Source: an uncultured Alphaproteobacteria bacterium
Lineage (GTDB): Bacteria; Pseudomonadota; Alphaproteobacteria; UBA3830; CAYLKK01
Reading direction: 5' to 3'
DNA: 64,000 nucleotides
Assembly: GCA_964566185.1 (NCBI GenBank)
Contig: CAZMHS010000001.1
Location: 86,159-150,158, forward strand
Positions 23,674-62,460 of this stretch are shown here, in pieces. The position numbers and the translations under genes are program-made. The notes under the pieces are model-generated. The model ran no database searches and was not told where the DNA came from. It saw nothing but the letters and a program-made list of their open reading frames with translations. The first letter of the stretch is position 1. The number at the start of each line of letters is the position of its first letter.

Positions 23674-25873
23674 TGCACGTCAAGAAGGCGAATATGATTT
23701 TGGTGATACATTTTTTGCATTTCCAAAAAATTTTGCTGTTTTGCAAGCAAATACGTTATGCAAATTAAAATCACAGATTAAAGATGAATTGATTGTATAT
23801 TCTCTACATGGAGTAGAAGAAATTTCGTCATTATATGAGTTTCAAGTCAATATACTAACCGCTAATAGTAATATTGATGGAGATTCTCTAATAGGCTCTA
23901 ATATAACATTAGAGATAAACTTGGAGAAAGTTCGTTTTATCAATGGAATAGTGTCAAGATTTACGCAGGGCATGACATCTATTGTAGATAATTATTCTTT
24001 AACACATTATGTGTTAGAAATTAAGCCGAAATTATGGTTCTTAAGTTTGGGGCAAAATAGTAAAATTTTTCAAAATAAGTCAGCGATTGATATTGTTAGT
24101 AGTATATTAAAAGATGCTGGACTTGATGTGACAGATAAAACATCTTCTTGTGGAAAAGAGAAACAAGAGTATTGTGTGCAGTATAATGAAAGTGACTTTC
24201 ATTTTGTATCTAGATTGATGGAAGAGTCTGGCATTTGTTATTTTTTTAAACATGAATCAGGTAAGCATACAGTTGTATTGTGTGATTCAGCAAACGGTTA
24301 TTTGGATGAAAAAATTGACGCGCAATTTTCACCTATGAAACAAGATAATACGTTGTTTAATGTAGTGAATAACGTCAAGTTAACGAGTTCTTATTGCCAA
24401 GGACCGTACGCATCAACAGATTATAATTATACGGCTTCACAAACTGATTTGTCTGCAAAATTAAAAGGTAAACAGTCTAAACATGAGATCTTTGAATATC
24501 CTGGGTATTATCAAAAATTAAATGCAGGCAATAATATAGCTAAAGTAAGAATTCAGGAACTTGAATGCAAAACGAAGCTTCTAAACGGATCATCGAAGAT
24601 CGCATGTTTATCTTCTGGTGGAAAATTTACTTTGAGTGGGCATCCTACAAAATCTGTAAACGCTACGTATGTTGTGTGTAGTGTTATACATAGATTGAAC
24701 TTAGAATCTGAATGGATATATTTGAACGAATTTGTTGCAATGGACGCAAAAGTAGATTTTAGACCGCGAAGAGTTACGCAAAGGCCATTGATTACGGGGA
24801 CACAGTCAGCTATCGTAACTGGTCCAAATGGCGAAGAAATCTATACAGATAAATTGCGTAGAATAAAGGTGCAATTTTTCTGGGATCGAGAAGGTAAGAA
24901 AGATGAAAATAGTTCATGTTGGGTGCGTGTTGCTCAACTTTGGAGCGGGAAGACATATGGCGTATTATATACGCCTAGAGTCGGGCAAGAAGTAGTCGTT
25001 TCGTTTGAAAATGGCAATCCAGATCGTCCACTTGTCGTTGGTTGCGTTTATAACGACAAGTTAATGCCCCCCTACTCTGCTTCTGACGCTACAAAAAGTA
25101 CTATAAAAAGTTCTTCATCAAAAGGTGAAGATGGATTTAATGAAATAAGGTTTGAGGATCTTAAGGACTCTGAAGAGATATATGTACATGCACAAAAGGA
25201 CATGAATTTAGATATTGTAAATGCTAGGAGTACTTTGATTGAAAATGCAGACGATACATTAACAATATCAAAAGGGTCTAGAACTGAATTACTTAATGCT
25301 GAAGGTGATAATCCTGCTAATTACACAACTACGCTTGTGAAGGGTGATAAAAATTTAACGATAAAAGAGGGTAATAGTTCTACTATTTTGAATAAGGGAG
25401 AGATGTCGATAACATTAGATGATGGAAATCAAACTATTAAACTGACGAAAGGAAATCTGTCGTTGACGGTATCAGATGGAAATGTCGATATATCCACAAA
25501 AGGAAACTATTCTCTTTCTGTAGATGGCAATTTGAGCATTTCTTCTACTGGAACGATAAAGATTGATGCTCAAAAAGATATTACAATAACATCTAAAGGA
25601 AATATATCAGAGACGGCGACGAAAAATCTTAATATGACGTCAAAAATGAATACTAAAATAGATTCATCAATGGACGTTAATATTGCTGCGAAGATGAATT
25701 TGGCATTTGAAGGCAAAGTAAATGCTGATTTAAAAGCAGGTGTAGCAATGAATATTAAGGGAGTAAGTATAAGTATTAATGGTAGTGCTGCAACGGCAAT
25801 AAAGGGTGGCGCTTCATGCCAGATTTCATCTCCTATGACAAGTATTGGTGGAGGTATGGTTGCTCTTGGATGA
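23657..25873 (+). CDS. vgrG: type VI secretion spike protein VgrG (gp27/gp5-like)
   Basis: LHGVEEISSLYEFQVNIL is the VgrG N-terminal signature. NESDFHFVSRLMEESGICYFF is gp27-like. RVGQEVVVSFENGNPDRPLVVGCVYN is the gp5 OB-fold signature. A C-terminal beta-helix repeat region follows (TIKEGNSSTILNKGEMSITLDDGNQTIKLTKGNLSLTVSDGNVDIS...). Start is ATG 23657 or TTG 23645. Confidence 0.9.
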   Translation: MYTDVDARQEGEYDFGDTFFAFPKNFAVLQANTLCKLKSQIKDELIVYSLHGVEEISSLYEFQVNILTANSNIDGDSLIGSNITLEINLEKVRFINGIVSRFTQGMTSIVDNYSLTHYVLEIKPKLWFLSLGQNSKIFQNKSAIDIVSSILKDAGLDVTDKTSSCGKEKQEYCVQYNESDFHFVSRLMEESGICYFFKHESGKHTVVLCDSANGYLDEKIDAQFSPMKQDNTLFNVVNNVKLTSSYCQGPYASTDYNYTASQTDLSAKLKGKQSKHEIFEYPGYYQKLNAGNNIAKVRIQELECKTKLLNGSSKIACLSSGGKFTLSGHPTKSVNATYVVCSVIHRLNLESEWIYLNEFVAMDAKVDFRPRRVTQRPLITGTQSAIVTGPNGEEIYTDKLRRIKVQFFWDREGKKDENSSCWVRVAQLWSGKTYGVLYTPRVGQEVVVSFENGNPDRPLVVGCVYNDKLMPPYSASDATKSTIKSSSSKGEDGFNEIRFEDLKDSEEIYVHAQKDMNLDIVNARSTLIENADDTLTISKGSRTELLNAEGDNPANYTTTLVKGDKNLTIKEGNSSTILNKGEMSITLDDGNQTIKLTKGNLSLTVSDGNVDISTKGNYSLSVDGNLSISSTGTIKIDAQKDITITSKGNISETATKNLNMTSKMNTKIDSSMDVNIAAKMNLAFEGKVNADLKAGVAMNIKGVSISINGSAATAIKGGASCQISSPMTSIGGGMVALG

Positions 25874-26432
25874 CGAATTAGATATTTTAAATTGCTCTAC
25901 AACGAAAGTAGATAAGTATGACAGGAGTTATAATCATGATACAAGTAGTAGTCAGGAGCATCAATCTGACGCGAATGTTTTCGAAGAGATAAAAAATGAA
26001 TTATCACCTGAAGTTGAAGAAGTCAAATCTGTACGCGATATAGAACTCGATCTTGGCGATGGAACGTTTCTATATGCGTCTGTTGTTGATGGTGAATTAA
26101 CAGGCAAGTGTACATTGATCAAGAATGGTCAAAATATTGCTATATTACAGTATGAACAAGGACAAATTCATGGAGTGTGTACTTTCTATCAAAAAAGTGG
26201 TGTTGTTAGCGCTGAGGTGGAATATAAATATGGGAAAAAAGATGGATCTGCTAATTACTTTAATGAAAATGGAAAATTACTTAAAACAGAGAGCTATGTA
26301 AATGATAAAAAACATGGGATATTTCAAAGCTATTACGAATCGTCAGAACTTTATGAAAAAACGGAATATGACAATGATCAAGTGATTTCATGTGTTAGGT
26401 ATAACAAGGACGGTTCATTAATATCTGATTGA
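25845..26432 (+). CDS. MORN-variant (YwqK-like) repeat protein with acidic N-terminal region
   Basis: About five 23-24-aa repeats of G-x..Y..NG...G type (GKCTLIKNGQNIAILQYEQGQIHG / VCTFYQKSGVVSAEVEYKYGKKDG / SANYFNENGKLLKTESYVNDKKHG / IFQSYYESSELYEKTEYDND). Only TTG/GTG starts are available (25845, 25860, 25866), overlapping or abutting the vgrG stop. Confidence 0.6.
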   Translation: MVEVWLLLDDELDILNCSTTKVDKYDRSYNHDTSSSQEHQSDANVFEEIKNELSPEVEEVKSVRDIELDLGDGTFLYASVVDGELTGKCTLIKNGQNIAILQYEQGQIHGVCTFYQKSGVVSAEVEYKYGKKDGSANYFNENGKLLKTESYVNDKKHGIFQSYYESSELYEKTEYDNDQVISCVRYNKDGSLISD

Positions 26433-47172: not shown

Positions 47173-48357
47173 CTAACATATGCTTTCATGGATTCTTATT
47201 AATCTATTGTATTTACTTATTCTATCTCCGCGGCGAGGTCCACCAATCTTGATGTATTCTGCTCCAACTCCTACAGCAAGGTCGCACATGGCTGTATCAT
47301 CAGTTTCAATAGAACGATGTGATACACACAATGTAAAACCGTACGACCGAGCCTTTTTTGCTGCTTGCAACGTTCCACTAATTGTTCCTATTTGGTTCAT
47401 CTTTAACAAAATGCCATTTGCAATGTCTGGAGATATATTATCTGCATTTGTTGCGAAAAGGTCATCACCGACAATTAATGCAGAATCAAAACATTTCATT
47501 AACTGTTTCCATGTAGTCGTATCACCTGGATCAAAAGGATCTTCTACATAAAACACGTGTCTACCATATATCAATTGCTTAATTTCTTCTAACAGCTCTC
47601 GTGACGTCAATTTAACCTTTTCATACATATAATACCCATTATCGAGCATTAAGTGTTCTGCTGCAACATCTACACCATATTTGATACATTGCGAACAACA
47701 TAAAATATTGTTCTTTGCTTTATCTAACAAATTAAATACTTCATCAATAGAAATATCATTGACGATCATGCCACTAGATGATGAATACCCTAATAAACGT
47801 CCTGCGTCTTTCATTTGAGATTCAATACTAGAGTATATACTAATTACTGTCTCGAAATTAGAGATCAAATTTTCAGATGTAGGGATCAACATCACCTGTT
47901 GAAACGGTATACCCTGTCCTTTTGCGTGTATTCCACCGCTAAAAACATTTACCATAGGAAATGGGATCTTTGGGGAACTGTTTGCTAACGCTGAAATATA
48001 TTGATACAGTTCAATTCCTATCTTACTCGCGCATGCTCTGCAAAATGCAATAGACATAGACAACATTAAATCACTACCTAAGTGATACTCATCGTTTAAC
48101 TTACTTAATGCATCATCAAATTCATATTGGCCGTCGAAAACAACATTCTTAATGGCACATTTCAACTGATTTTCTAAATCAGTGAAGGATGAGCTTGCAT
48201 CTGACGCCGGTTTCTCTAGCCTACCCGGTTTCAACGCTGATGGTGCTGAACCAACACCATGCCAACCATCATCAACAGAAATAATAACTTCAAATGTCCA
48301 TTCACCACCTGAATTAAATATACGACGAATTTTCAAATTTGAGATTCTATATTTCAT
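47173..48357 (-). CDS. enolase-family protein, divergent (acid-pair residues replaced)
   Basis: Collinear with enolase: PMVNVFSGGIHA, VDVAAE, YVEDPF, IVGDDLFATN, LLKMNQIGT, VSHRSIETDDTAMCDLAVG and IKIGGPRRGDRISKYNRLIRIHE. However, FQQVML replaces IQEFMI and LGYSSSSG replaces VGDEGGYAP. Confidence 0.85.
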   Translation of the reverse strand: MKYRISNLKIRRIFNSGGEWTFEVIISVDDGWHGVGSAPSALKPGRLEKPASDASSSFTDLENQLKCAIKNVVFDGQYEFDDALSKLNDEYHLGSDLMLSMSIAFCRACASKIGIELYQYISALANSSPKIPFPMVNVFSGGIHAKGQGIPFQQVMLIPTSENLISNFETVISIYSSIESQMKDAGRLLGYSSSSGMIVNDISIDEVFNLLDKAKNNILCCSQCIKYGVDVAAEHLMLDNGYYMYEKVKLTSRELLEEIKQLIYGRHVFYVEDPFDPGDTTTWKQLMKCFDSALIVGDDLFATNADNISPDIANGILLKMNQIGTISGTLQAAKKARSYGFTLCVSHRSIETDDTAMCDLAVGVGAEYIKIGGPRRGDRISKYNRLIRIHESIC

Positions 48358-48374
48358 ATTTTCCCCTCACGATA

Positions 48375-50234
48375 CTAATTTTCGCATTCGAATAAATACC
48401 CTAAAAGGTCAATTGCGTATTTTACCTCTAAAGATCCTTCATTTTTTGCGTAGCTTTCACCGAACACACAACTATTATCAGGTGCAATGTTGTTACCATA
48501 CACGAGAACAGGTACTTTATCAGATGAATGTATACCAAGTTCACACGGCGTACAATGATCACACGTAACAATAAGTGAGTCTTTTATACCCATTCTAGAC
48601 ATTAGCGTACCAATAAAATGCTTATCAAAGCGTTCAATAGATTCTGCTTTTGCTACAGGATTTCCGCCATGACCAGCTTCATCTGCACTTTTCAATATAT
48701 GTATACAGATAACATCGGCATCATCATTAGCTATAAGCTCTGCCGACTCTTTCAACAGTCGAATTTCATCATTATGTTCCGGCATCTCTATATAATTAAA
48801 CTTTCCTCCCAGTAACAAAGCTAATCCTCTTTCAGCTGGAATCTGTCCATACATAGATAACGTCCTACCAAATTTTTCTTTAAACGTACATAATTTAATA
48901 GGCATTTCCCCGGCATCTCTCATTAACAACATATTAGCCGTCTGCTGTCCTCTCGCTAAACGTGCTTTATTTGTAGCGCTTTCTGATAGTACTTTTGCAA
49001 CTTTTGAGACAAATTCATTAACTATCTTCGCAGAAAAAGCTGCCTCTTCAGAGTCGTCTAACGGGACACATTTCAATGGTTCTGGAATAACAGTCTCATT
49101 TGGTATACCAAACGCTCCTTGCTTCTTAAAACCAGGATCTGTATTCGATATATTTCCAGATAGCTTACGATTTTTGCATGTTAAACTTACAATTCCTCTA
49201 TGATGCCCAAACACAACAATTTTGAACGTAACATCATACTCCTCTAAAGATACGTGGCTACGCAGCTCTTCGGCTAAACTTTGTAGCTCAGGATTAGATA
49301 GATCTCTTGAGGTTCTTCTATCCAACTTTTTGTTAGCCGGATCATAACTTGCTAAATTCACTCTAAAACATATTGTATTAGAATTATCTCGCTCTAATAA
49401 AACAAAATTAGCGCCAAGCCCTTCTAATGGTCCTCTTCCAGTGTAATACTTTAAAGGGTCATAAGAAAGAATAGCCATCGTGCCATTATCTGATTCAGGC
49501 GGAATAGAATCGTTTAAAATTGTAATCATTCCTTGACATCCATAAAGAGCTAATCTGTCCAGATTAGGTGTATAAGCTTGTTCAAATGGTGTCTTGCCAC
49601 CAAATTGAGCTATTGGACGATCTGCGCCGCCATCAACGATTACAATATACGTCTTTCCTTCTTCAGCGAACACAACTTGAAGCCGATGTTTATCGGCGGA
49701 CATTATTGAATCAATTACACGCTTAGTTCCAGACGGAGCTAAATGCCACCACTGTTTTCCTTTTAAAATACCATCCCGAATTTTTGTCGCAGTAATATTC
49801 TTCTCTTCTTTTGATTTGTACCACAACACTTCAGTTCTAAATCCATGTTTTGCCAGCTCAGCCTGCTTTTTTTCTCCCCACTCATCATATATTGTTAAGA
49901 AATACACAGCATCAGCAGGTGTATAATACTTTAATAACCAAGGAACATTGATTGGAAATGGAACAATCCTCACTCTAGACACATCATCGCCTACTGCGTC
50001 TACTAAAGACTCTCTAATCATCTCCATACGTTCACAAAACGTAAATGGATTCGATATATCAGTTGATCTATTCGGATCAGATGCATCAAATCTTATAGAT
50101 GATGGATCAGGATTGGTTATTCCAATAAACAAAGTTTCCGACCTTTCTAAAGCTGTAAGAACATATTTTAAATGATCATTGTGAAACGGCTGAAACCTAC
50201 CATGTACTACGCCATAACGATACCTATTCATCAT
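48375..50234 (-). CDS. fusion protein: NMNAT/NadM-like nucleotidyltransferase (N) + archaeal-type cofactor-independent phosphoglycerate mutase-like domain (C)
   Basis: N-terminal ~175 aa: GVVHGRFQPFHNDHLKYVL...LFIGITNP (HxGH-class NTase) and a late ITATKIRDGI (ISSTxxR-like) motif. From about aa 195: YIVIVDGGADRPIAQFGGKTPFEQAYTPNLDRLA, PPESDNGTMAILSYDPLKYYTGRGPLEGLG, DRRTSR, DEAGHGG and TCDHCTP (ApgM pattern). Confidence 0.8.
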   Translation of the reverse strand: MMNRYRYGVVHGRFQPFHNDHLKYVLTALERSETLFIGITNPDPSSIRFDASDPNRSTDISNPFTFCERMEMIRESLVDAVGDDVSRVRIVPFPINVPWLLKYYTPADAVYFLTIYDEWGEKKQAELAKHGFRTEVLWYKSKEEKNITATKIRDGILKGKQWWHLAPSGTKRVIDSIMSADKHRLQVVFAEEGKTYIVIVDGGADRPIAQFGGKTPFEQAYTPNLDRLALYGCQGMITILNDSIPPESDNGTMAILSYDPLKYYTGRGPLEGLGANFVLLERDNSNTICFRVNLASYDPANKKLDRRTSRDLSNPELQSLAEELRSHVSLEEYDVTFKIVVFGHHRGIVSLTCKNRKLSGNISNTDPGFKKQGAFGIPNETVIPEPLKCVPLDDSEEAAFSAKIVNEFVSKVAKVLSESATNKARLARGQQTANMLLMRDAGEMPIKLCTFKEKFGRTLSMYGQIPAERGLALLLGGKFNYIEMPEHNDEIRLLKESAELIANDDADVICIHILKSADEAGHGGNPVAKAESIERFDKHFIGTLMSRMGIKDSLIVTCDHCTPCELGIHSSDKVPVLVYGNNIAPDNSCVFGESYAKNEGSLEVKYAIDLLGYLFECEN

Positions 50235-50236
50235 AA

Positions 50237-51217
50237 TTACCTCACTCCCAATATTTTTAAAATCTCTTTACGCAAAAACAATTTACCGGTACTTCCTACA
50301 TCACCATCCCAAGTAACGCCAAGATGTGAGTTTGCAAAAATATGCTTTATTTCATCCGAATGAGAAATAAGATAATTTTTGCCTTCACTAATTGATGGCA
50401 TGGTCAGAACCCAATCTCTATATTCAGAAGTACATTTTTCTAAAGCTTCGATAAATTCTGAATTTTTAATCATCGAAGAAGCATCATACAGTTCAATTTG
50501 TGCAATAGCCCAACCGTTGTCACTTAGAACTTTTATATCATTAGTTAACGCATATTCTAAGTTAGAAAGCATAACTCTCTCTACTTCAACGTAATATTCT
50601 TTTATCCAGTCTTTCGGTAAACATACATATTTTTCTAATGCTTTAAACGCCTTTATATCACGATCTTTCGTGATGCTTGCATTAAAATTTAGAGTATTAG
50701 CGAATATTGCCGTATATAGCAAATTGGCCGATAGTTCACTAGGTTTTTTTTGCGCGGCTTCAAATTCTTCAAAAATTAACGTTGCGCAAGCGCCTAGAAA
50801 TTCTATATTCCCCCTCTCTTTCCAATATTGTTCAAAACCAAAATGATGATCAAAAACAATTTCAATTTCATCTTCATTTACGAACTTTGGAAAGTAATGA
50901 GGATCACTGACATCAACTATAACGAAAGAATTATACTCTTGTGCTGCTTCATTTAAAAAATGTCCAGAACACATTTTTCGGATGCTCTCAGGAACAGTAC
51001 CATTTAATTTTCCTGGAAGTACGACATCACATTTTTTTAACTCACCATACGCGATTGCACAAGCTAATGTATCTATGTCCGTATATGCACTACCACTCGT
51101 TACACACGTTTTCCTACAATCAGTCATCAAAGCTCCTTCGCAATTACAAGCAGGAACATTACTGCAAAAAACACACATAATCAACAGCAAAAAAAATACT
51201 TTCATAAAATACTCCAT
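50237..51217 (-). CDS. DHH/DHHA2 phosphoesterase, family II inorganic pyrophosphatase-like, with N-terminal signal/Cys-rich extension
   Basis: Collinear with PpaC as recalled: SGSAYTDIDTLACAIAYGELK, FVIVDVSD, VFDHHFG, GACATLIFEEF, LLYTAIFANTLNF, WAIAQIELYD and GKLFLRKEILKIL. It is preceded by MKVFFLLLIMCVFCSNVPACNCEGALMTDCRKTC. An alternative start lies at 51205. Confidence 0.7.
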   Translation of the reverse strand: MEYFMKVFFLLLIMCVFCSNVPACNCEGALMTDCRKTCVTSGSAYTDIDTLACAIAYGELKKCDVVLPGKLNGTVPESIRKMCSGHFLNEAAQEYNSFVIVDVSDPHYFPKFVNEDEIEIVFDHHFGFEQYWKERGNIEFLGACATLIFEEFEAAQKKPSELSANLLYTAIFANTLNFNASITKDRDIKAFKALEKYVCLPKDWIKEYYVEVERVMLSNLEYALTNDIKVLSDNGWAIAQIELYDASSMIKNSEFIEALEKCTSEYRDWVLTMPSISEGKNYLISHSDEIKHIFANSHLGVTWDGDVGSTGKLFLRKEILKILGVR

Positions 51218-51226
51218 AAATTTTTT

Positions 51227-52045
51227 CTATATACACAACTTTCTTAGATAGTCAGCATCTTTCAACCACGGTTCGATTTCTGCTGACGGTGGATTAAATG
51301 TTTCAAGAACAATCATAGCGTCATTATCTGAGAATTCACTCAAAAAACGTTTGATATCATAATTTCCAATACCTAAATGTAGATGAGCGTCAAAACTGAC
51401 GGACATATCTCCATCGGATAAGTGGTATAAAACAGGATTCAGAGCTTTATACTTACTAAACGAATCATATACATCAATATTTAACGAAATAGCCGCGCAC
51501 ACAGCATGTGCAAAATCAAAGCAAAATTTACAACCTGTTTCATTGACTATTCTAGAGATATTTTCAAATCTTCCTCCATGCATAAAACATCCGAAGACTT
51601 CATATGGAAGATTTTCTACAGTAATACGACTATCATTTATTAATCTCACTTGCCTGATTGTTTCATCTACACACTTATCGGAATCTCCGATCCCAGGATG
51701 CAATATGATGATCTCAGATTGCAACAAATCTGCGCATTTTTGGGAAAATTCCAAAGCCTGAATATTTCGAGTTAACCACGACTCATCGCTAGTATTCACA
51801 CCATTATACTTCGAAGGAATATAAAACGGAGCATGGACAACGACTTTAATTCCTGTCATCTTTTGCTCAATTTTACATAAAATACCATCGTAGTACTCTG
51901 GAGTGTATCTTGCATGTAGCTGAACGAAATTATACACATTGTCTCGGACCGCTTTTAAAATATGATCAGCAAGGTCTGGTTGGCTTAACAAATCTATAGA
52001 ATTCAAATTAATACCAAAATGTCTCATCAGTGCGCTACCCTTCAT
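51227..52045 (-). CDS. xylose isomerase-like TIM-barrel protein (AP endonuclease 2 / sugar-phosphate isomerase-epimerase superfamily)
   Basis: The spaced metal-ligand pattern typical of this fold is present (VVVHAPFYI; IIILHPG; TVENLP; FCFDFAHA; YHLSDGD; DAHLHLGIGNYD; IVLETF). Confidence 0.65.
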   Translation of the reverse strand: MKGSALMRHFGINLNSIDLLSQPDLADHILKAVRDNVYNFVQLHARYTPEYYDGILCKIEQKMTGIKVVVHAPFYIPSKYNGVNTSDESWLTRNIQALEFSQKCADLLQSEIIILHPGIGDSDKCVDETIRQVRLINDSRITVENLPYEVFGCFMHGGRFENISRIVNETGCKFCFDFAHAVCAAISLNIDVYDSFSKYKALNPVLYHLSDGDMSVSFDAHLHLGIGNYDIKRFLSEFSDNDAMIVLETFNPPSAEIEPWLKDADYLRKLCI

Positions 52046-53606
52046 AACTTAAAATGAATTCTGCAATCGTTACGCCTAACTTCTTGGCTTCATTTTTTAT
52101 CCACAAATTTGCGTCTAACTGTTTTTCAAATCGTTGTACAATCTTTTTATAATTCTCGTGATGAATCGCGTAAGCATATTCTTTCGCTGTCATCAAACAC
52201 AACATGATGCTACGTCCTGATGGTAATTTTCTACTTCTACGATTTCTAAACTTAAAACCCTGAAATGATGACAAACCTGCTTCCTGTTTTATAAAAATAG
52301 ATGAACCAAGCTCTGCGTCTATATCAAAAACAGATTCGCTAAAATCTCTGCAAACCATAGATGCGAAATACGCTGGAACTTTGATGCCTTGTAACATCTC
52401 ATACGATCTAGAGCCTTTTACAAGAATGGCTGAAGCATCAAGCACCAAGTCAACTACTTCCTCAGATAATTGTAAACCATGTACAGCTCCCCAACACGGT
52501 CCGCATTCAGAATATCCATATTGACCACTATCAAATTGTGTGCTTAATTTCGAAAAAACAGGTAATGATAAATATCGCTTTATATCAATAGACGACGCAT
52601 CATTCCCATATCTAATACCGTGTTTTCCACTACGTGGAACTGAAATGATCTTCAAATTTTCGTTTGCAGACAGTAATTGCTGTATAAAGTATAAATCAAA
52701 CACCGTTTCAGCTACATCATCATGAAACCAAAGTAATGTTTTCGGTGATTTTGTTAAGACAAATTCCGTTTCAAACTCTTTCCAAAAGTCTATAACAAAA
52801 TCTTCTTTTACTTTGTTGTCTAGAGAATTTTTAATGCGTATGACTTTCTCCTGAAAAGTTTCATTTTCAAGTAAATTGTAGAATATAATGTTGTTAATGC
52901 TTTTATGAATCGGTGATGCAGCTGATGCTGACGATTTCATATCGACGCCAAGCGAACCAGCGGCAATGGAGTACTTCAGTAAGTTTAGTAATGAAACATT
53001 AGAGAAACGTTCTATAATTGCGAGACTCACTGCTTCAACTTTTTCATTATATGAACGTTCAACATACGGATATTTATTCACATCGTCATACAAAAAGAAT
53101 GCAATCAACTTTGTAAACACATCTTGATACAACTGATTTGGAACTAACTCTATCAGCATCTTGTTGAGTTTATTATGTTTTAGAAACATAGATAAATAAA
53201 CAAACTCTTCAACCTTAATACCAAGTTCTTGCTCTTTATTCCTAAGCAACAACGACGCATTTTCCTCAGCTTGGCATAATCTACATATTTCATTATGAAC
53301 GCACTGAAAGACCCAGTCCTTAAAAGGTAAGTTATCCGCAGAAGCGATGAAATCTGGCTGTTTCAAGCGTTCAGACAGAAAAAACGTTCCTGTTTCGAAA
53401 TCGTCGTCGAATAACCCTGCTAGCTTATCTTTCTCGGCTGGTGAAATAGATGACCCTAATACCGTGTCTATAAAACGGTATGGACATTTAACCATCAATG
53501 CTTGCGCCACATCATTACTCACGCGCGCATACTCCGTAATACTATCGCAGGCTTCGATGTCTTTTATCAACTTTTCTAATGCTAAACCCATATTGCATTT
53601 CTCCAC
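52035..53606 (-). CDS. protein with C-terminal DUF89 (ARMT1-like metal-dependent phosphatase)-like domain and unrecognised N-terminal ~290 aa
   Basis: C-terminal half: LLWFHDDVAETVFDLYFIQQL (compare DNxGxExxxD), RYGNDASSIDI and ILVKGSRSYEMLQG (compare KGxxNYE). GTG 53606 or ATG 53591 (after GGAG) are possible starts. It overlaps the next gene by 11 nt. Confidence 0.55.
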   Translation of the reverse strand: MEKCNMGLALEKLIKDIEACDSITEYARVSNDVAQALMVKCPYRFIDTVLGSSISPAEKDKLAGLFDDDFETGTFFLSERLKQPDFIASADNLPFKDWVFQCVHNEICRLCQAEENASLLLRNKEQELGIKVEEFVYLSMFLKHNKLNKMLIELVPNQLYQDVFTKLIAFFLYDDVNKYPYVERSYNEKVEAVSLAIIERFSNVSLLNLLKYSIAAGSLGVDMKSSASAASPIHKSINNIIFYNLLENETFQEKVIRIKNSLDNKVKEDFVIDFWKEFETEFVLTKSPKTLLWFHDDVAETVFDLYFIQQLLSANENLKIISVPRSGKHGIRYGNDASSIDIKRYLSLPVFSKLSTQFDSGQYGYSECGPCWGAVHGLQLSEEVVDLVLDASAILVKGSRSYEMLQGIKVPAYFASMVCRDFSESVFDIDAELGSSIFIKQEAGLSSFQGFKFRNRRSRKLPSGRSIMLCLMTAKEYAYAIHHENYKKIVQRFEKQLDANLWIKNEAKKLGVTIAEFILSYEG

Positions 53607-54494: not shown

Positions 54495-55364
54495 GTGGAA
54501 AAAAATCATATTGTTAACGTTGGGGACATAAAGATTTCTAATGAAATGCCGTTCACGTTGATAGCTGGACCGTGTTCGTTAGAAAGTCGGGATTTGGCGT
54601 TACGAATGGTAGAAAAGATTTCTATCGTGTCTGAAAAAGTAGGACGGCCGTTCATATTTAAGACATCGTTTGATAAAGCTAATAGGACTAGCGGTTCATC
54701 AAAACGTGGCGTTGGATTTGCTGAGTCAATTGGAATATTTCGTGAAATTCGTGGCACATTTAATTGTCCGATAGTAACAGACATACATGAGCAATATCAG
54801 TGTTCTGAACTTGTCGACGTTGTCGATGTTTTGCAAATTCCTGCCTTTCTTTGCCGTCAAACTGATTTGTTGGTCGCTGCGGCGAAAACGAAAAAAGCTA
54901 TTAATGTTAAAAAAGGACAATTTCTTGCTCCATGGGATATGAAAAATATTTGCGAAAAAATAGAACAAGCAGGAAATCGCAATATTTTATTATGCGAGAG
55001 AGGCGTTTGTTTCGGCTATAACAGGTTGGTAAATGACTTTCGTTCATTGCCAATAATGGCTAAGACAGGGTATCCAGTTATTTTTGATGCTACGCATTCT
55101 GTTCAAGAACCTGGTGGGTTAGGAAATAAAAGTGGCGGTCGAAGAGAATTTGTTGAAGTACTAGCTCGTGCTGCCATTGCTGTAGGGTGTGCTGGGCTAT
55201 TCATTGAGACTCATGATGACCCTGATAATGCTTTTAGTGACGGGCCGAATATGTTGCCAGTTCAAGCTTTGTATGATTTTTGGATGCGAATGATAGAGTT
55301 CGATGAACTTGCGAAATCTCGAGCATATGTAGACGTATTTAGCAATGTCGTTGCTAAAGAATAA
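54495..55364 (+). CDS. kdsA: 3-deoxy-8-phosphooctulonate (KDO8P) synthase
   Basis: FTLIAGPCSLES, FKTSFDKANRTS, LQIPAFLCRQTDL, NVKKGQF, FDATHSVQ and ETHDDPDNAFSDGPN are present. Confidence 0.95.
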   Translation: MEKNHIVNVGDIKISNEMPFTLIAGPCSLESRDLALRMVEKISIVSEKVGRPFIFKTSFDKANRTSGSSKRGVGFAESIGIFREIRGTFNCPIVTDIHEQYQCSELVDVVDVLQIPAFLCRQTDLLVAAAKTKKAINVKKGQFLAPWDMKNICEKIEQAGNRNILLCERGVCFGYNRLVNDFRSLPIMAKTGYPVIFDATHSVQEPGGLGNKSGGRREFVEVLARAAIAVGCAGLFIETHDDPDNAFSDGPNMLPVQALYDFWMRMIEFDELAKSRAYVDVFSNVVAKE

Positions 55365-58589: not shown

Positions 58590-59675
58590 TCACCTGATTT
58601 TTAATGTTGCTAATCCGAACAGAGCGAGCAAAAATGATATAATCCAAAATCTCACTACAACGGTTGTTTCACTCCACCCTTTTTCTTCAAAATGGTGATG
58701 TATCGGTGCCATTAGGAATACACGAGTTCCCGTTCTTTTAAAAAAAATAACTTGAATGATAACAGATAATGCTTCAAGTACGAATATCCCCCCTATAATG
58801 ACTAAAATAAACTCATGTTTTGCGATAACAGCTAATGCGCCGATAATACAGCCTATATACATAGACCCAGTATCTCCCATAAATATTGCAGCTGGTGGCG
58901 CATTAAACCACAAAAAACCTAAGCAAGCGCCAACCAATGCTCCACAAATGATACATAATTCACTTGCGCTTGCAATGTAATGTATGTTTAAATAATTCGC
59001 AAAAACGACATGTCCAACTAAATAACAAATGACGCCAAGACATGATGTACAAAATATGACTGGGAATGTTACTAAGCCATCTAGTCCATCTGTTAGATTA
59101 ACTGCATTAGACGAGCCGACTATAACAAATGTGAAAAATAGTGGTAAAAATGCGCCAAGGTGAATTATCAGATTTTTAAAAAATGGAAAAGTTAATGCGC
59201 CGTATACTTCGGTACTACGAAGCGATTCTATGTAATAAGAGAATATGATCGAGACGACGATTTGAAGTAAGAGCTTCTGCTTAGCACTTATTCCATCGCT
59301 GTTATTTTTTCGCAATTTTTTATAATCATCGATAAGACCTATTAACATGAATGCAATACTGAGTAGCGTAACAGATATAACATACTTATTCGACATATCG
59401 CTCAATAACAATGTAGATGTAATTGTTGAAATAGAAATCAGTAGGCCTCCCATAGTTGGTGTACCCTTCTTTTTTATGTGTGTATCAGGGCCGCAATCGC
59501 GTATAGGCTGACCATTCTTTTGGATCTTTTTGAAATAATTAATAACATATGGAAACATCATCACATTTATGAAGAAAGAGATAAATAATGCACAAAATGT
59601 ACGAAACGTTACGTACTTCATAAGCGTTATGCCAGGAATGACTTGAGAAAAAGATTGTGATAAGCTATATAGCAT
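58590..59675 (-). CDS. mraY: phospho-N-acetylmuramoyl-pentapeptide transferase
   Basis: KKGTPTMGG, DDYKKL, NAVNLTDGLDGL, FMGDTGSMYIG and APIHHHFE are present. Confidence 0.95.
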   Translation of the reverse strand: MLYSLSQSFSQVIPGITLMKYVTFRTFCALFISFFINVMMFPYVINYFKKIQKNGQPIRDCGPDTHIKKKGTPTMGGLLISISTITSTLLLSDMSNKYVISVTLLSIAFMLIGLIDDYKKLRKNNSDGISAKQKLLLQIVVSIIFSYYIESLRSTEVYGALTFPFFKNLIIHLGAFLPLFFTFVIVGSSNAVNLTDGLDGLVTFPVIFCTSCLGVICYLVGHVVFANYLNIHYIASASELCIICGALVGACLGFLWFNAPPAAIFMGDTGSMYIGCIIGALAVIAKHEFILVIIGGIFVLEALSVIIQVIFFKRTGTRVFLMAPIHHHFEEKGWSETTVVVRFWIISFLLALFGLATLKIR

Positions 59676-62460
59676 TTTCTACTCCAATATTATTTTTTAA
59701 ATAATCAACTATTTTATCAAACCTCATGTAACGTGAAGCTTTCACTAAAACTACGCTATTAGCGTGTATGTCAATACTTTTTAACATAGATTCAACATCA
59801 TTAAACCAATTCGATCTATGTAATTTTTTATGTAAGGCTAACATATGTTCTCCACATAAGTAAATATCATTTATTTTGTCAAAGTAAACGTGTAAATCTG
59901 AGTGCTTTTTTGATGTTGCTTGTCCAAGCTCACCCATATCACCTAATATAGCGACTCGTTTTGCTGCATTGTAGGTTTTTAAAGATTTAATCGCAGCTAT
60001 CATTGAAGATGGGCATGCATTATACGTATCGTCTATCATAATAGAACCGTTCCGTAATTTATAAACCTCTCCCCTACCGCTTAGCGGCGTAAACTTTTCT
60101 GATAAGATATCTGCTGCGCTGTTTACACAATGTCCCATTATAGCAGAATACAATAGAGGTATCACGCTATCGACAATTATACCTTCGTTCTTTGTGCGCA
60201 AAGAATATGACACGTTATTTCCAAGTACATTCGCATGAACTATAGATCTATCTTTTTCAAAGCTTACATTTAATATTTTAGCATCAGCTTGGCTATTATT
60301 ACCGAAGGTGTATATTTGTTTAATATTATTCTGTATAGCATTATTCCTTAGTAAGTCTGAATATGCTTTATCTCCAGGAATAATTGTGAAATCCTGCTTA
60401 ATGCCATTAGAAAAAATTTCTGATTTAGCATGAACTATTTCAGAAAGATCTTTGAAAAATTCTAGATGACATTCTGACACGTTTGTGATTATAGATACGT
60501 TTTGATCGACAAGTTCTGTTAGTTTAGATAAATCACCGGTATTACTCATTCCCATTTCTATAACGGCATTTTTAGCATCTCGTGGTATCATGCTTAAACA
60601 AATTGGAACACCTATTTGACTGTTATAATTTTTGATCGAAGAAAATGTATTTTCGAAGTGTCCTAAAACTAAGCCAAGCATGCCTCTCGTAGTGCTTTTT
60701 CCCACACTTCCAGTTACTCCAATTATCTTTGCTTGTCGTCTTTGTCTTGCGTAATGGCCGAGCATTTGTAACGCAGATAAAGTATCGTTTACCATAATGA
60801 TATTATTGTTAATGATATCAGTATGGTTACAAATGACGACACTAGCACCTTTTTCTATTGCTTCGTTAATGTAGTCATCGCCGTCAAAATGCTCACCTTT
60901 TAATGCGACGAATAGATCGTTATCTTGTATATCACGAGAATTAAAAGATATTCGATGAACATTTCGTGTTACATTACAGTGAAATATCGTATTTATTTCA
61001 TCTGCAGTAAATACAGAAATGTTTTTACTAACCTCATAAGCATCGCTAAAATATACACTTTTATTTCCAATTAATTGATAATTTTCGTGTCCTTTTCCTG
61101 CAATCAACAAGATATCGCCGTTGTGCAAGCCATTAATCGCTTCGGATATAGCAACATGCCTGTCTGGAATTTCTATTGCGTTCTTGCATCCTGACATGAT
61201 TGCCGAACGTATTGCCGCAGGATCTTCGTTTCTTGGATTATCATCCGTGACTATGACAAGATCAGCTATAGACTCGGCAACACTTCCCATTAATTTTCTT
61301 TTCTGTACATCTCTTTCACCTCCACAGCCAAAGACAACAATGAGTTTTCCTGTGGCGTTGTTTTTTACATCTTCTAATGCTGTCCGTAATCCATCTGGTG
61401 TATGTGCATAATCAACGTATATGCTTCCACCGTTGTAATTACCAACGTACTGCATTCTTCCTACTACATCATGTAGCATAGACATACTATGTAGAACTTT
61501 TTCAATCGGTGTGCCACTAGAACAAGCCATAGCAGCTGCGCATAACATGTTCGATAATTGAAAATTAGACGAAATGCGAATGGATGTTTCGTATTTTTTC
61601 CCAAAACACTGCAAAACTACGTTATATCCGGTTGTATCTCGCTTTTTTAGGCTAATTAAGTGAATATCGCCACACGTCCGTCCGTAAGTAACTACATCGC
61701 CTACGCAAACGTGGCGAAGTTCATGAAATCGCTCTGAATCTGTGTTTAAAACACATTTCGTCTCACGTGATATATACTGCGAGAACAAACGCGATTTTAC
61801 ATTAAAATACTCTTCCATTGAAGAATGATAATCTAAATGATCTTGCGAAAAGTTTGTGAAAGCAACGACATCAAAATTAATGCCAAACATACGGTATTGG
61901 TCAAGTCCATGACTAGAGGCTTCTAATGCGACATTACACACTCCTCGATTACTCAGTTCTTGTAAATTTCTGTTTAATGATATTGGATCTGGTGATGTAA
62001 GAGATTTTTGTATTTGTGAATAATCTTCTGATGATATAACGCCTAAAGTACCAATACTCGCTGATTTTTCTCCACTTAAAGCCCAAATTTGACGTAAAAA
62101 ATCTACAGTTGATGTCTTTCCATTTGTCCCTGTTACAGCAGCGATTCGTCGTAATTTATTGGGATAAAATTTGCAACATATTAAAGCTAACAATTTTCGT
62201 GGTTCTCTATCTTCTATAATTATGCATTTGTCATTTTTATAAACTTTGTAGCTTTCTCCTTTCCTTAATATAAATTTAGCTCCAGCATTAATTGCTGCAT
62301 CGATGTACTTTTCTCCATCATCGTGCGTTCCGGATAAAGCTGCAAATAAGAAGCCGTCTTTTACTGTCCTAGAGTCGAGAGATATGCCAAAAACTATATC
62401 ATCATAATTACACTTTATTAATTCGCATAACCTATATCTTATTTCAACAACATTTTCCAA
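59665..62460 (-). CDS. fused MurE (meso-DAP-adding ligase) - MurF (D-Ala-D-Ala-adding ligase), single 931-aa ORF
   Basis: N-half: SLDSRTVKDGFLFAAL, VTGTNGKTST, TNFSQDHLDYH, DYAHTPD, DDNPRNED and AGKGHENYQ. C-half: FNSRDIQDNDLFVALKGEHFDGDDY, GVTGSVGKSTT, IDDTYNACP and GDMGELG. There is no stop or frame change at the junction (about nt 61000-61050). Confidence 0.9.
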   Translation of the reverse strand: MENVVEIRYRLCELIKCNYDDIVFGISLDSRTVKDGFLFAALSGTHDDGEKYIDAAINAGAKFILRKGESYKVYKNDKCIIIEDREPRKLLALICCKFYPNKLRRIAAVTGTNGKTSTVDFLRQIWALSGEKSASIGTLGVISSEDYSQIQKSLTSPDPISLNRNLQELSNRGVCNVALEASSHGLDQYRMFGINFDVVAFTNFSQDHLDYHSSMEEYFNVKSRLFSQYISRETKCVLNTDSERFHELRHVCVGDVVTYGRTCGDIHLISLKKRDTTGYNVVLQCFGKKYETSIRISSNFQLSNMLCAAAMACSSGTPIEKVLHSMSMLHDVVGRMQYVGNYNGGSIYVDYAHTPDGLRTALEDVKNNATGKLIVVFGCGGERDVQKRKLMGSVAESIADLVIVTDDNPRNEDPAAIRSAIMSGCKNAIEIPDRHVAISEAINGLHNGDILLIAGKGHENYQLIGNKSVYFSDAYEVSKNISVFTADEINTIFHCNVTRNVHRISFNSRDIQDNDLFVALKGEHFDGDDYINEAIEKGASVVICNHTDIINNNIIMVNDTLSALQMLGHYARQRRQAKIIGVTGSVGKSTTRGMLGLVLGHFENTFSSIKNYNSQIGVPICLSMIPRDAKNAVIEMGMSNTGDLSKLTELVDQNVSIITNVSECHLEFFKDLSEIVHAKSEIFSNGIKQDFTIIPGDKAYSDLLRNNAIQNNIKQIYTFGNNSQADAKILNVSFEKDRSIVHANVLGNNVSYSLRTKNEGIIVDSVIPLLYSAIMGHCVNSAADILSEKFTPLSGRGEVYKLRNGSIMIDDTYNACPSSMIAAIKSLKTYNAAKRVAILGDMGELGQATSKKHSDLHVYFDKINDIYLCGEHMLALHKKLHRSNWFNDVESMLKSIDIHANSVVLVKASRYMRFDKIVDYLKNNIGVENAI

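What the first reader, a model, noticed from the sequence alone, without database searches (positions are those of the whole stretch)
47173..48357. Enolase paralog retains metal ligands and Lys base but has lost the Glu/Glu acid pair
Seen in sequence: the protein is collinear with enolase end to end. Retained are the metal-ligand equivalents (D230 in VDVAAE, E272 in VEDPF, D298 in VGDDLF). Also retained are the base Lys (K319 in LLKMNQIG), the HRS phosphate/carboxylate triad (VSHRS) and the second Lys (K370 in YIKIGG). The enolase IQEFMI motif reads FQQVML (Glu to Gln), and the VGDEGGYAP motif reads LGYSSSSGM, so the Glu is absent. The PSGASTG loop is PSALKPG.
Established knowledge (recalled from yeast/E. 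coli enolase mechanism): Lys345 abstracts the C2 proton, while Glu211 with Glu168 protonates the leaving hydroxyl.
Inference: the protein could still enolise a 2-substituted carboxylate but should be poor at dehydrating 2-PG. That implies a different leaving group or substrate, or a non-catalytic role.
Basis: partly seen in the sequence, partly recalled or inferred. Interest (0 to 1): 0.65.

Follow-up and report, generated by a model that had tools for sequence, protein, structure and literature searches.

The report
PhpH-type enolase homologue in a phosphoryl-transfer operon
This gene is not a decaying enolase: it belongs to a conserved enolase-derived family, whose known member helps make the herbicide phosphinothricin, and here it sits in a symbiont operon with no phosphonate genes, so its product is probably an undescribed phosphoenolpyruvate analogue.

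Summary
The 394-aa ORF at 47173-48357 (-) has an enolase fold. It keeps the metal ligands, the Lys base, His-Arg-Ser and the second Lys. It has Gln for Glu168, Ser for Glu211, Ser for Asp210 and Lys for Ser39.

These changes are not decay. All 120 closest homologues carry Gln/Asn168, and 119 carry Ser211 (one Ala). The changes co-vary with loss of Ser39 and a gained Arg at position 401. dN/dS against a 93%-identical relative is 0.20.

The enolase homologue in the phosphinothricin-type cluster of Kitasatospora phosalacinea (PhpH, carboxyphosphonoenolpyruvate synthase) has the same motifs.

In the window the gene ends a five-gene operon: ARMT1-like, endonuclease IV-like TIM barrel, family II pyrophosphatase-like DHH protein, a PhpF-PhpG fusion, then the enolase-like gene. 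No PEP mutase lies within 64 kb, and the protein branches outside the PEP-mutase-linked enzymes, next to relatives encoded beside SelD-like genes.

Best reading: it converts the PhpF-PhpG product, a 2-(X-phosphoryl)glycerate, into an X-phospho-enolpyruvate. X is unknown. I infer that the leaving group may be a 3-phosphate rather than hydroxide; this is untested.

Verdict: a new variant of a known kind, of moderate to high interest.

The parts
47173..48357 (-). Enolase-fold protein of the PhpH (carboxyphosphonoenolpyruvate synthase)-like clade, 394 aa. Q154, S193, S194, S195, K43 and R375 stand at yeast enolase positions E168, D210, E211, G212, S39 and A401.
48363..48368 (-). Shine-Dalgarno GAGGGG, 5 nt (48362-48358) upstream of the ATG. 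The stop codon of the upstream gene is at 48377-48375.
   Evidence: read directly from the sequence
48375..50234 (-). Fusion protein of 619 aa. Residues 1-190 are an NMN-adenylyltransferase-like nucleotidyltransferase (PhpF-like, GRFQPFHNDH motif). Residues 194-615 are a PhpG-like phosphoglycerate-mutase-fold transferase.
   Evidence: CTP_transf_like, Metalloenzyme, PhosphMutase. (NF038358 PhpG 535.3 bits, cut-off 545, full length). (42-51% identity to PhpF and PhpG of other loci).
50237..51217 (-). DHH family protein resembling family II (Mn-dependent) inorganic pyrophosphatase. It is the fourth conserved member of the module. The N-terminal 40 residues are hydrophobic and the start codon is uncertain.
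   Evidence: Co-occurrence with the module.
51227..52045 (-). AP_endonuc_2 (xylose-isomerase-like) TIM barrel. The closest solved relative is endonuclease IV. Its role is unknown; it may be a phosphodiesterase or an isomerase.
   Evidence: Conserved in L001 and L002.
52035..53606 (-). ARMT1-like (DUF89) domain protein, 523 aa, first gene of the operon. The family is rare and some members are fused to an MFS transporter.
   Evidence: Conserved in L001.

Best explanation
The gene encodes a catalytically active, enolase-derived lyase of the PhpH type. It works as the last step of a three-activity module encoded with it.

Step 1. The PhpF-like domain of the upstream fusion protein couples an NTP to a small phosphoryl-type anion X-PO3. 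This gives NMP-P-X plus pyrophosphate. The DHH pyrophosphatase-like protein probably removes the pyrophosphate.

Step 2. The PhpG-like domain transfers the X-phosphoryl group onto (phospho)glycerate.

Step 3. The enolase-like protein uses the retained enolase machinery (Lys319 as base, the Mg ligands, Gln153 and Lys370 on the carboxylate, His144, Arg348 and Ser349 on the phosphoryl group). It removes the C2 proton and eliminates the C3 substituent. The product is an X-phospho-enolpyruvate, the analogue of carboxyphosphonoenolpyruvate in phosphinothricin biosynthesis.

The signature is an adaptation of the pocket around C3 and the X group, not a loss of function. It removes three acidic residues (Glu168 to Gln, Asp210 to Ser, Glu211 to Ser). 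It adds Ser at position 212 and Arg at 401. Ser39 becomes Lys.

My inference, not shown: the C3 leaving group is a 3-phosphate, which needs no general acid, rather than hydroxide.

X is not phosphonoformate here, because the phosphonate-forming genes are absent. It is unknown. The nearest relatives point to a selenophosphate- or thiophosphate-like anion.

Shown: fold, residue pattern, clade-wide conservation, purifying selection, operon structure and its conservation, and the position of the protein in the family. Inferred: the reaction, the leaving group and the identity of X.
For: Upstream gene:
- It is a full-length match to the NCBIfam equivalog for PhpG, 'CMP-5'-phosphonoformate--3-phosphoglycerate phosphonoformyl transferase' (535 bits against a cut-off of 545). 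It is fused to an NMNAT-like nucleotidyltransferase, the family of PhpF (PMC4748306 and PMC6697681 name PhpF and PhpH this way).

Co-occurrence:
- In 70 of 86 loci holding this enolase type, a PhpG homologue was detected in the flanking DNA held (up to 10 kb each side).
- 37 of those loci are phosphinothricin-like clusters with PEP mutase, phosphonopyruvate decarboxylase, a second PEP-mutase-family gene and an aldehyde dehydrogenase. They include Kitasatospora phosalacinea (L052). Its enolase homologue has the same FQQVML, SASSG, DVAAEH and GGPRRGDR motifs.

Signature:
- It is coordinated. Among 155 representatives, 54 have Q/N168 plus S211; 46 of the 48 scorable at position 39 lack Ser39, and 49 of 54 have Arg401. 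Of 84 with E168 plus E211, 81 keep Ser39 and 79 lack Arg401.
- K345, K396, Q167, H159, R374, S375, D246, E295 and D320 are invariant in the clade.

Selection and operon:
- dN/dS is 0.195 against L087.
- The five-gene operon is conserved at 49-66% identity in another alphaproteobacterial MAG.
- The DHH partner recurs with the module in Clostridia, Streptomyces and L090. In vitro, PhpF product formation needed added pyrophosphatase (10.1101/2025.05.01.651723).

Position in the family:
- No PEP mutase, SelD or NifS homologue lies in the window.
- The NJ tree puts the query in the branch without PEP mutase, next to P0005, whose contig carries AIRS (SelD-like) and Aminotran_5 genes.
- Position 39 is Lys in the SelD-linked proteins (5 of 5) and the alpha-type proteins (4 of 4), but Ala in the phosphinothricin-type proteins (35 of 36).
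Against: - No member of this clade, PhpH included, has a solved structure. I could not retrieve any paper that demonstrates its reaction in vitro. The PhpH reaction itself rests on genetics and homology (my recollection of Blodgett et al. 2007, which is not held in the library).
- The substrate X is not identified, and nothing in the window makes an obvious X-PO3.
- The roles of the ARMT1-like and TIM-barrel genes are unexplained.
- The 3-phosphate leaving-group idea has no direct support. I could not measure distances in the model because coordinates are not exposed.
- A clade-invariant His (H235) or Tyr191 could instead act as the acid for a hydroxide leaving group.
- One sub-clade (Chromatiales, next to P-type ATPases) has the same signature without PhpF or PhpG nearby. 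The enolase-like enzyme therefore does not always depend on that pair.
Confidence: 0.62

Rival explanations
1. It is a true PhpH (carboxyphosphonoenolpyruvate synthase) of a phosphinate pathway. The PEP mutase, the phosphonoformate-forming genes and the CPEP mutase would lie elsewhere in the genome.
For: It shares the active-site signature with the phosphinothricin-type enzymes. It is 38-44% identical to them. The adjacent PhpG-like domain scores within 10 bits of the PhpG equivalog cut-off.
Against: In all 37 phosphinothricin-like loci, one or both PEP-mutase-family genes lie within about 9 kb of the enolase gene, usually within about 5 kb. Here none lies within 64 kb, and none in the syntenic contigs L001 and L087. 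The tree places the query outside the PEP-mutase-linked branch. Position 39 is Lys, not the Ala of that branch. The operon partners (DHH, TIM, ARMT1-like) were not found by the seed searches in the flanks of the phosphinothricin-type loci.
Confidence: 0.1
2. It is the organism's working glycolytic or gluconeogenic enolase, merely divergent. Other residues would take over the acid role for 2-phosphoglycerate dehydration.
For: It has the full enolase fold and retains the base, the metal ligands and the phosphate and carboxylate binders. Whether a canonical eno exists elsewhere in the genome could not be checked.
Against: It scores below the TIGR01060 cut-off (216 against 300 bits). It lacks Glu211, the general acid (PMC4450660), as well as Glu168 and Ser39. 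From my recollection of Poyner et al. 1996, cited in PMC4450660, the E168Q and E211Q variants are essentially inactive overall. The same signature occurs in Streptomyces and Clostridia, inside specialised gene clusters. The gene is translationally coupled to PhpF-PhpG.
Confidence: 0.03
3. It is a non-catalytic enolase-like protein: a scaffold, binding protein, moonlighting factor or decaying pseudo-enzyme.
For: Two residues essential for the canonical reaction are gone.
Against: 48 positions are invariant among 62 clade members, including every remaining catalytic and ligand-binding residue. The substituted positions are themselves conserved (Ser211 in 119 of 120). dN/dS is 0.195. The gene is conserved in an operon with enzymes.
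Confidence: 0.04
4. It catalyses a direct exchange on PEP, as in the older 'CPEP synthase' formulation (PEP + X-PO3 gives X-P-enolpyruvate + Pi). It would hydrate and re-eliminate at the enolase site, and PhpG would do something else.
For: The historical name of PhpH is carboxyphosphonoenolpyruvate synthase (PMC4748306). The Chromatiales sub-clade lacks PhpF and PhpG.
Against: Tight co-occurrence and fusion or coupling with PhpF and PhpG in 70 of 86 loci argue that the enzyme acts on their product. Such an exchange would still need acid-base chemistry at C3.
Confidence: 0.08

Closest known systems
PhpH, carboxyphosphonoenolpyruvate synthase (the enolase homologue of phosphinothricin-tripeptide, bialaphos and phosalacine clusters)
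   Same: Enolase fold. Identical signature motifs (FQQ(V/I)M, S-A/S-S-S-G, DVAAEH, K(I/V)GGPRRGDR). 38-44% identity. Encoded immediately downstream of PhpF- and PhpG-type genes.
   Different: There are no PEP mutase, phosphonopyruvate decarboxylase, CPEP mutase or aldehyde dehydrogenase genes nearby. It branches outside the PEP-mutase-linked clade. It has Lys, not Ala, at enolase position 39. PhpF and PhpG are fused. The operon partners are DHH, an EndoIV-like TIM barrel and an ARMT1-like protein. The host is a Holosporales-like alphaproteobacterium rather than an actinomycete.
Canonical enolase (Eno, phosphopyruvate hydratase, TIGR01060)
   Same: Collinear two-domain fold (TM about 0.9). Same Mg(I) ligands, Lys345 base, Lys396, Gln167, His159, and His373-Arg374-Ser375.
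   Different: Glu168 to Gln, Asp210 to Ser, Glu211 to Ser, Gly212 to Ser, Ser39 to Lys, Ala401 to Arg. Scores 216 bits against a 300-bit cut-off. Identity is 26-31% to the top structural matches shown. It sits in a specialised operon rather than a glycolytic context.
SelD-linked PhpF/PhpG/enolase-like/DHH operons (uncharacterised; L090, L006, L010, L032, L040, L051, L081 and the P0005 contig)
   Same: Same four-gene core: nucleotidyltransferase, PhpG-like, enolase-like and DHH-like. Same Lys at position 39. These are the nearest branch in the tree.
   Different: Those operons add a SelD-like AIRS protein with the GGCGCK or GGCAAK motif. Two of them (the P0005 contig and L090) also carry a NifS-like Aminotran_5 gene, and L090 has an MFS exporter. 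The window has ARMT1-like and TIM-barrel genes instead, and no SelD within 64 kb.

Membership tests
Canonical enolase (phosphopyruvate hydratase, TIGR01060) | Score at or above the curated equivalog cut-off | tested here: not met
   216.1 bits against a cut-off of 300
Canonical enolase (phosphopyruvate hydratase, TIGR01060) | General-acid pair Glu168 and Glu211, and Ser39 as ligand of the second Mg | tested here: not met
   Gln154, Ser194 and Lys43 stand at these positions in phmmer and MAFFT alignments
Canonical enolase (phosphopyruvate hydratase, TIGR01060) | Enolase N- and C-terminal domains with Mg(I) ligands, Lys345 and Lys396 | tested here: met
   Pfam Enolase_N and Enolase_C. D230, E272, D298, K319 and K370. 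Foldseek TM 0.88-0.92.
Canonical enolase (phosphopyruvate hydratase, TIGR01060) | 2-phosphoglycerate dehydration activity | not testable with these tools
   Requires an enzyme assay
PhpH-like clade (carboxyphosphonoenolpyruvate synthase-type enolase homologues) | Shared sequence signature with the enolase homologue of bona fide phosphinothricin-type clusters (Q/N168, S211, S212, R401, DVAAEH, GGPRRGDR) | tested here: met
   Identical motifs in the query and in L052 (Kitasatospora phosalacinea), L005 and L070.
PhpH-like clade (carboxyphosphonoenolpyruvate synthase-type enolase homologues) | Encoded next to PhpF-type nucleotidyltransferase and PhpG-type transferase genes | tested here: met
   The PhpF-PhpG fusion ends 17 nt upstream. 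The same adjacency holds in 70 of 86 loci.
PhpH sensu stricto (phosphinate biosynthesis) | Clustered with PEP mutase, phosphonopyruvate decarboxylase, the phosphonoformate-forming enzymes and CPEP mutase | tested here: not met
   tblastn with PEP-mutase, Ppd and aldehyde dehydrogenase seeds finds nothing in the 64-kb window. They are also absent from L001 and L087.
PhpH sensu stricto (phosphinate biosynthesis) | Groups phylogenetically with the PEP-mutase-linked enzymes | tested here: not met
   The NJ tree places the query in the sister branch, with SelD-, DHH- and ATPase-linked members. This is a distance tree without support values.
PhpH sensu stricto (phosphinate biosynthesis) | Forms carboxyphosphonoenolpyruvate | not testable with these tools
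   Requires reconstitution with phosphonoformate, CTP and phosphoglycerate

The most novel reading that the evidence does not exclude
The core of DHH, PhpF, PhpG and enolase-like genes is a general, previously unrecognised route to P-substituted phosphoenolpyruvate analogues that has nothing to do with C-P bond formation. In the SelD/NifS-linked operons it would make seleno- or thio-phosphoenolpyruvate. In this Holosporales-like symbiont and in gut Clostridia it would make a related compound. The Glu-to-Gln/Ser signature would mark a switch of the enolase scaffold from hydroxide elimination to phosphate elimination from a 2-(X-phosphoryl)-3-phosphoglycerate.
Probability: 0.25. Interest if true: 0.85.

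Novelty: new variant of a known kind. Interest (0 to 1): 0.58.

Why it matters
An enolase homologue in phosphinothricin biosynthesis has long been known. Its chemistry has never been explained at residue level, and the family has been viewed as a phosphinate-pathway curiosity.

Three points follow from this analysis.
- The 'missing' acid pair is a defining, coordinated signature of the family.
- That gives a concrete mechanistic hypothesis to test: a leaving group that needs no acid.
- The family appears much broader than phosphinates. In this survey a little over half of the loci recovered lack PEP mutase. They sit in gut Clostridia, Chromatiales, Ktedonobacteria, Streptomyces (beside SelD-like genes) and an intracellular-type alphaproteobacterium.

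If the products are PEP analogues, they could be antimetabolites of MurA, EPSP synthase, KDO8P synthase or enolase itself. Alternatively they could be carriers of selenium or sulfur. Either would be new biochemistry. Cultured strains are available for testing: Petralouisia muris NM01_1-7b and several Streptomyces NPDC strains.

Tried and rejected
- Exact-sequence look-up of the window protein found no record. The GTDB scan did not return the source genome. I therefore could not check for a canonical eno, selD or PEP mutase elsewhere in the genome.
- The primary phosphinothricin papers and reviews are not held: Blodgett 2007, Metcalf and van der Donk 2009, Blodgett 2016, Ju 2014. The exact PhpG and PhpH reactions rest on the NCBIfam name and my memory.
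- Literature searches linking selD or selenophosphate with enolase or phosphoglycerate-mutase homologues found nothing relevant.
- The arseno-organic cluster paper (PMC4943196) does not mention enolase and was dropped as a lead.
- The ARMT1-like protein has only 11 detectable relatives, in varied contexts. One sits beside a phosphohexomutase, a HIT protein and an MFS transporter; two are fused to MFS. No function could be deduced.
- PDB searches for the ARMT1-like protein found nothing.
- The promoter and terminator scan was no better than shuffles.
- Model coordinates are not exposed, so I could not measure whether Arg375, His235, Ser194 and Ser195 line the C3 pocket.
- A self-resistance enolase, as might accompany an enolase inhibitor such as SF2312, was considered and rejected. 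The protein lacks the acid pair and so cannot replace enolase.
Full report
**Observation**

The region 47173-48357 holds one intact ORF on the minus strand, 394 aa. It has a GAGGGG ribosome-binding site and starts 17 nt after the stop of the upstream gene.

It matches Pfam Enolase_N and Enolase_C over its whole length. phmmer against PDB hits only enolases, the best at E = 7e-48 over residues 5-391. An AlphaFold2 model built on 62 homologues has mean pLDDT 94.6. It superposes on E. coli, Legionella and M. tuberculosis enolases with TM 0.88-0.92 at 26-31% identity.

They behaved correctly at every landmark. The alignment places:
- D230, E272 and D298 on the Mg ligands D246, E295 and D320;
- K319 on K345, and K370 on K396;
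- H347-R348-S349 on H373-R374-S375;
- Q153 on Q167, and H144 on H159.

Q154 stands at E168, S193 at D210, S194 at E211, S195 at G212 and K43 at S39. The HMMER pairwise alignments give the same register: 'fqqvml' against 'iqefmi', and 'ssgm' against 'eggf'.

**Not decay but a family signature**

All 120 best database homologues (38-93% identical) have Gln (88) or Asn (32) at position 168. At position 211, 119 have Ser and one has Ala. K345, K396, R374, S375, H159, Q167 and the three Mg ligands are invariant.

I ran an exhaustive HMMER search of 1.84 billion cluster representatives and aligned its best 150 hits together with a few earlier hits, 155 in all.
- 54 carry Q/N168 plus S211. Of these, 46 of the 48 scorable at position 39 lack Ser39, and 49 of 54 have Arg at position 401.
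- 84 carry E168 plus E211. Of these, 81 keep Ser39 and 79 lack Arg401.
- Only a handful are intermediate.

The change is therefore a coordinated set: S39x, E168Q/N, D210A/S, E211S, G212S and A401R. It comes with clade-specific DVAAEH and K(I/V)GGPRRGDR motifs. It removes three acidic side chains, and it adds one Arg and two Ser around the part of the site that handles C3 and the second metal.

Against a 93%-identical relative (L087), dN/dS is 0.195. Glu211 is the accepted general acid for hydroxide departure (PMC4450660). From memory of Poyner et al. 1996, cited there, E168Q and E211Q yeast enolases lose overall activity but still exchange the C2 proton.

**The neighbours**

The gene is the last of five tightly spaced minus-strand genes.
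- 52035-53606: ARMT1-like (DUF89) protein, 523 aa.
- 51227-52045: AP_endonuc_2 TIM barrel. Its closest solved relative is endonuclease IV, E = 1e-9.
- 50237-51217: DHH protein. Its closest relatives are family II Mn-dependent pyrophosphatases. It keeps the DxD, Asp75, DHH and Arg-Lys motifs but has Ser for His9 and Asn for Asp149.
- 48375-50234: a 619-aa fusion.
- 47173-48357: the enolase-like gene.

The C-terminal 420 residues of the fusion match the NCBIfam equivalog for PhpG, 'CMP-5'-phosphonoformate--3-phosphoglycerate phosphonoformyl transferase'. The match is full length at 535 bits, against a cut-off of 545. The N-terminal 190 residues are an NMN-adenylyltransferase-like nucleotidyltransferase.

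In phosphinothricin biosynthesis:
- PhpF is the NMNAT-like CTP:phosphonoformate cytidylyltransferase.
- PhpG is the phosphoglycerate-mutase homologue.
- PhpH is the enolase homologue, called carboxyphosphonoenolpyruvate synthase (PMC4748306; PMC6697681; 10.1101/2025.05.01.651723).

The window thus encodes a complete PhpF-PhpG-PhpH-type module.

**Comparative genomics**

I scanned one genome per GTDB species with two clade-specific peptide patterns. This returned 80 loci, the cap, from 286 pattern matches. I annotated their flanks by BLAST with seed proteins and with Pfam-annotated contigs. Five contexts emerge.

(A) 37 loci from actinomycetes, Solirubrobacterales, Pyrinomonadaceae and Isosphaeraceae. 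They include Kitasatospora phosalacinea NRRL B-16230 (L052). The typical gene order is PEP mutase, phosphonopyruvate decarboxylase, PhpF, PhpG, enolase-like, a second PEP-mutase-family gene, then aldehyde dehydrogenase. This is the phosphinothricin-type arrangement.

(B) SelD-like operons in Ktedonobacter (L006, L010), Streptomyces (L032, L051), other actinobacteria (L040), Caldilineaceae (L081), L090 and the contig of P0005. These hold an AIRS-domain protein carrying the SelD-like GGCGCK or GGCAAK motif, together with PhpF, PhpG and the enolase-like gene. A NifS-like aminotransferase is present on the P0005 contig and L090. A DHH-like gene is present in L032, L040, L051 and L090. An MFS exporter is present in L090.

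(C) 18 gut Clostridia loci with PhpF, PhpG, the enolase-like gene and DHH. A LysR regulator lies just upstream in about a dozen Clostridia loci.

(D) Five Chromatiales-type gammaproteobacterial loci in which the enolase-like gene sits beside P-type ATPases, with no PhpF or PhpG.

(E) The alpha type of this window. The same five genes occur in an alphaproteobacterial MAG at 49-66% identity (L001; L002 holds four of them), and the same synteny with rbfA-infB-nusA occurs in L087.

A PhpG homologue was detected in the flanking DNA held (up to 10 kb each side) in 70 of 86 loci.

**Where the window protein sits**

I built a neighbour-joining tree rooted on canonical enolases. The signature-bearing proteins are monophyletic. 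The PEP-mutase-linked enzymes form one large branch, and the query falls in the other. Its nearest relatives are P0002, L001-L003, then P0004, P0005 and P0006. P0005 comes from a contig with SelD-like and NifS-like genes. The other SelD-, ATPase- and DHH-linked groups follow. This is a distance tree without support values, so I treat it as indicative.

Position 39 separates the groups independently:
- Ala in 35 of 36 phosphinothricin-type proteins;
- Lys in 5 of 5 SelD-linked proteins and 4 of 4 alpha-type proteins;
- Ile, Val or Gln in most Clostridia and Chromatiales proteins.

tblastn with PEP mutase, decarboxylase, aldehyde dehydrogenase, SelD-like and NifS-like seeds finds nothing in the 64-kb window. 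Pfam annotation of 40 window ORFs shows housekeeping and symbiont-style genes only. ValRS homologues put the organism near uncultured Holosporaceae or Holosporales alphaproteobacteria, with 50-55% identity to named MAGs.

**Mechanism (best explanation)**

Shown: the fold, the signature, its conservation and selection, the operon and its recurrence.

Inferred, by analogy with the phosphinothricin steps:
1. The PhpF-like domain makes NMP-P-X from an NTP and a small phosphoryl-type anion.
2. The DHH protein pulls the reaction by hydrolysing pyrophosphate. In vitro, PhpF product was seen only with added pyrophosphatase.
3. The PhpG-like domain transfers the X-phosphoryl group to (phospho)glycerate.
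4. The enolase-like protein abstracts the C2 proton with Lys319 and eliminates the C3 substituent, giving an X-phospho-enolpyruvate.

The NCBIfam name gives 3-phosphoglycerate as the acceptor. The clade has removed the general acid and two further carboxylates, and it has added two Ser and an Arg. From these two facts I propose that the intermediate keeps its 3-phosphate and that phosphate, not hydroxide, is the leaving group. That would need no acid and would favour a less negative pocket.

This is my inference, at roughly 40% confidence on its own. The alternative is hydroxide loss assisted by another residue, such as the clade-invariant His235 or Tyr191.

X is not identified. It is unlikely to be phosphonoformate, given the missing phosphonate genes. 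The kinship with SelD-linked operons and the shared Lys39 make a selenophosphate- or thiophosphate-like anion a lead, but no SelD is present here. The ARMT1-like and TIM-barrel proteins are unexplained. The ARMT1-like family is rare, with 11 hits, and is twice fused to an MFS transporter. That hints at handling of an imported or exported phospho-compound.

**Comparison with known systems, and novelty**

The protein works like PhpH and belongs to the same signature-defined clade. It fails the tests for PhpH in the strict sense: clustering with PEP mutase, and the phylogenetic branch. It also fails the tests for canonical enolase: the score cut-off, the acid pair and Ser39. No structure of any clade member is in the PDB.

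I found no paper describing the residue signature, or the versions of the module that lack PEP mutase. The library lacks the key subscription papers, so absence of evidence is weak. I rate it a new variant of a known kind.

**Limits**

- Whether the genome has a canonical enolase could not be tested.
- The reaction, the leaving group and X are all inferred.
- The tree is a simple NJ tree.
- The yeast, E. coli and B. subtilis reference sequences were entered from memory. They were validated only by their perfect agreement with the conserved motifs in the HMMER alignments to PDB enolases and pyrophosphatases.

Noticed in passing
L090:326-7930; also L006:8676-13072, L010, L032, L040, L051, L081 and the contig of P0005: An operon of a SelD-like AIRS protein (GGCGCK or GGCAAK motif), a NifS-like aminotransferase, PhpF, PhpG, the enolase-like gene, an MFS transporter and a DHH protein. 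It occurs in Ktedonobacter, Streptomyces and other bacteria, with no PEP mutase. It looks like an undescribed selenium or sulfur small-molecule pathway. Two literature searches found nothing on it.
   Followed up: partly
L004:7868-13670; L012-L015: A Chromatiales-type gammaproteobacterial sub-clade has the same signature-bearing enolase homologue. It sits beside several P-type ATPases, plus in L004 a sodium:dicarboxylate symporter gene and in L004 and L015 a conserved 277-aa protein. No PhpF or PhpG lies within 10 kb.
   Followed up: no
L053 and L071 (Amycolatopsis); P0130, P0149: An intermediate state inside the clade. Glu168 is retained, position 211 is Ala, 212 is Gly and Arg401 is missing. 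These proteins still sit in PEP-mutase clusters, but with a different gene order.
   Followed up: no
window 50237-51217 (-): The DHH, pyrophosphatase-like ORF has about 40 extra N-terminal residues with a hydrophobic, signal- or lipobox-like stretch (…LLIMCVFCSNVPAC). A similar extension is in L001, but it is absent from the Clostridia, L089 and L090 homologues. An internal Met43 would give the short form. The true start and the location of the protein are unresolved.
   Followed up: partly
window 52035-53606 (-); P0387, P0388: The ARMT1-like protein belongs to a very small family (11 database relatives). Two members are fused to an MFS transporter. One (L091) sits beside a phosphohexomutase, a HIT protein and an MFS gene.
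   Followed up: partly
window 59665-62460 (-): MurE and MurF are fused into one 931-aa protein (766 bits to the bifunctional model NF008896, below its cut-off of 1023). The gene lies within a conserved dcw cluster: ftsI, murEF, mraY, murD, ftsW.
   Followed up: no
window 88-588, 23645-25873, 25845-26432: An ankyrin-repeat protein, a VgrG-like spike (Phage_GPD, Gp5_C) and a MORN-repeat protein. They suggest a host-associated lifestyle with a type VI or contractile injection system, which fits the Holosporales-like placement from ValRS.
   Followed up: no
window 54495-55364 (+): KDO8P synthase (kdsA), a PEP-consuming enzyme, lies about 0.9 kb from the start of the operon, in a secG-kdsA unit transcribed divergently from it. 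This may be coincidental, but it is worth noting if the operon's product is a PEP analogue.
   Followed up: no
L055 (Petralouisia muris NM01_1-7b), L021 (Thiohalocapsa halophila DSM 6210), L032 and L051 (Streptomyces NPDC strains): Cultured strains carry different versions of the module. They could serve as experimental systems.
   Followed up: no
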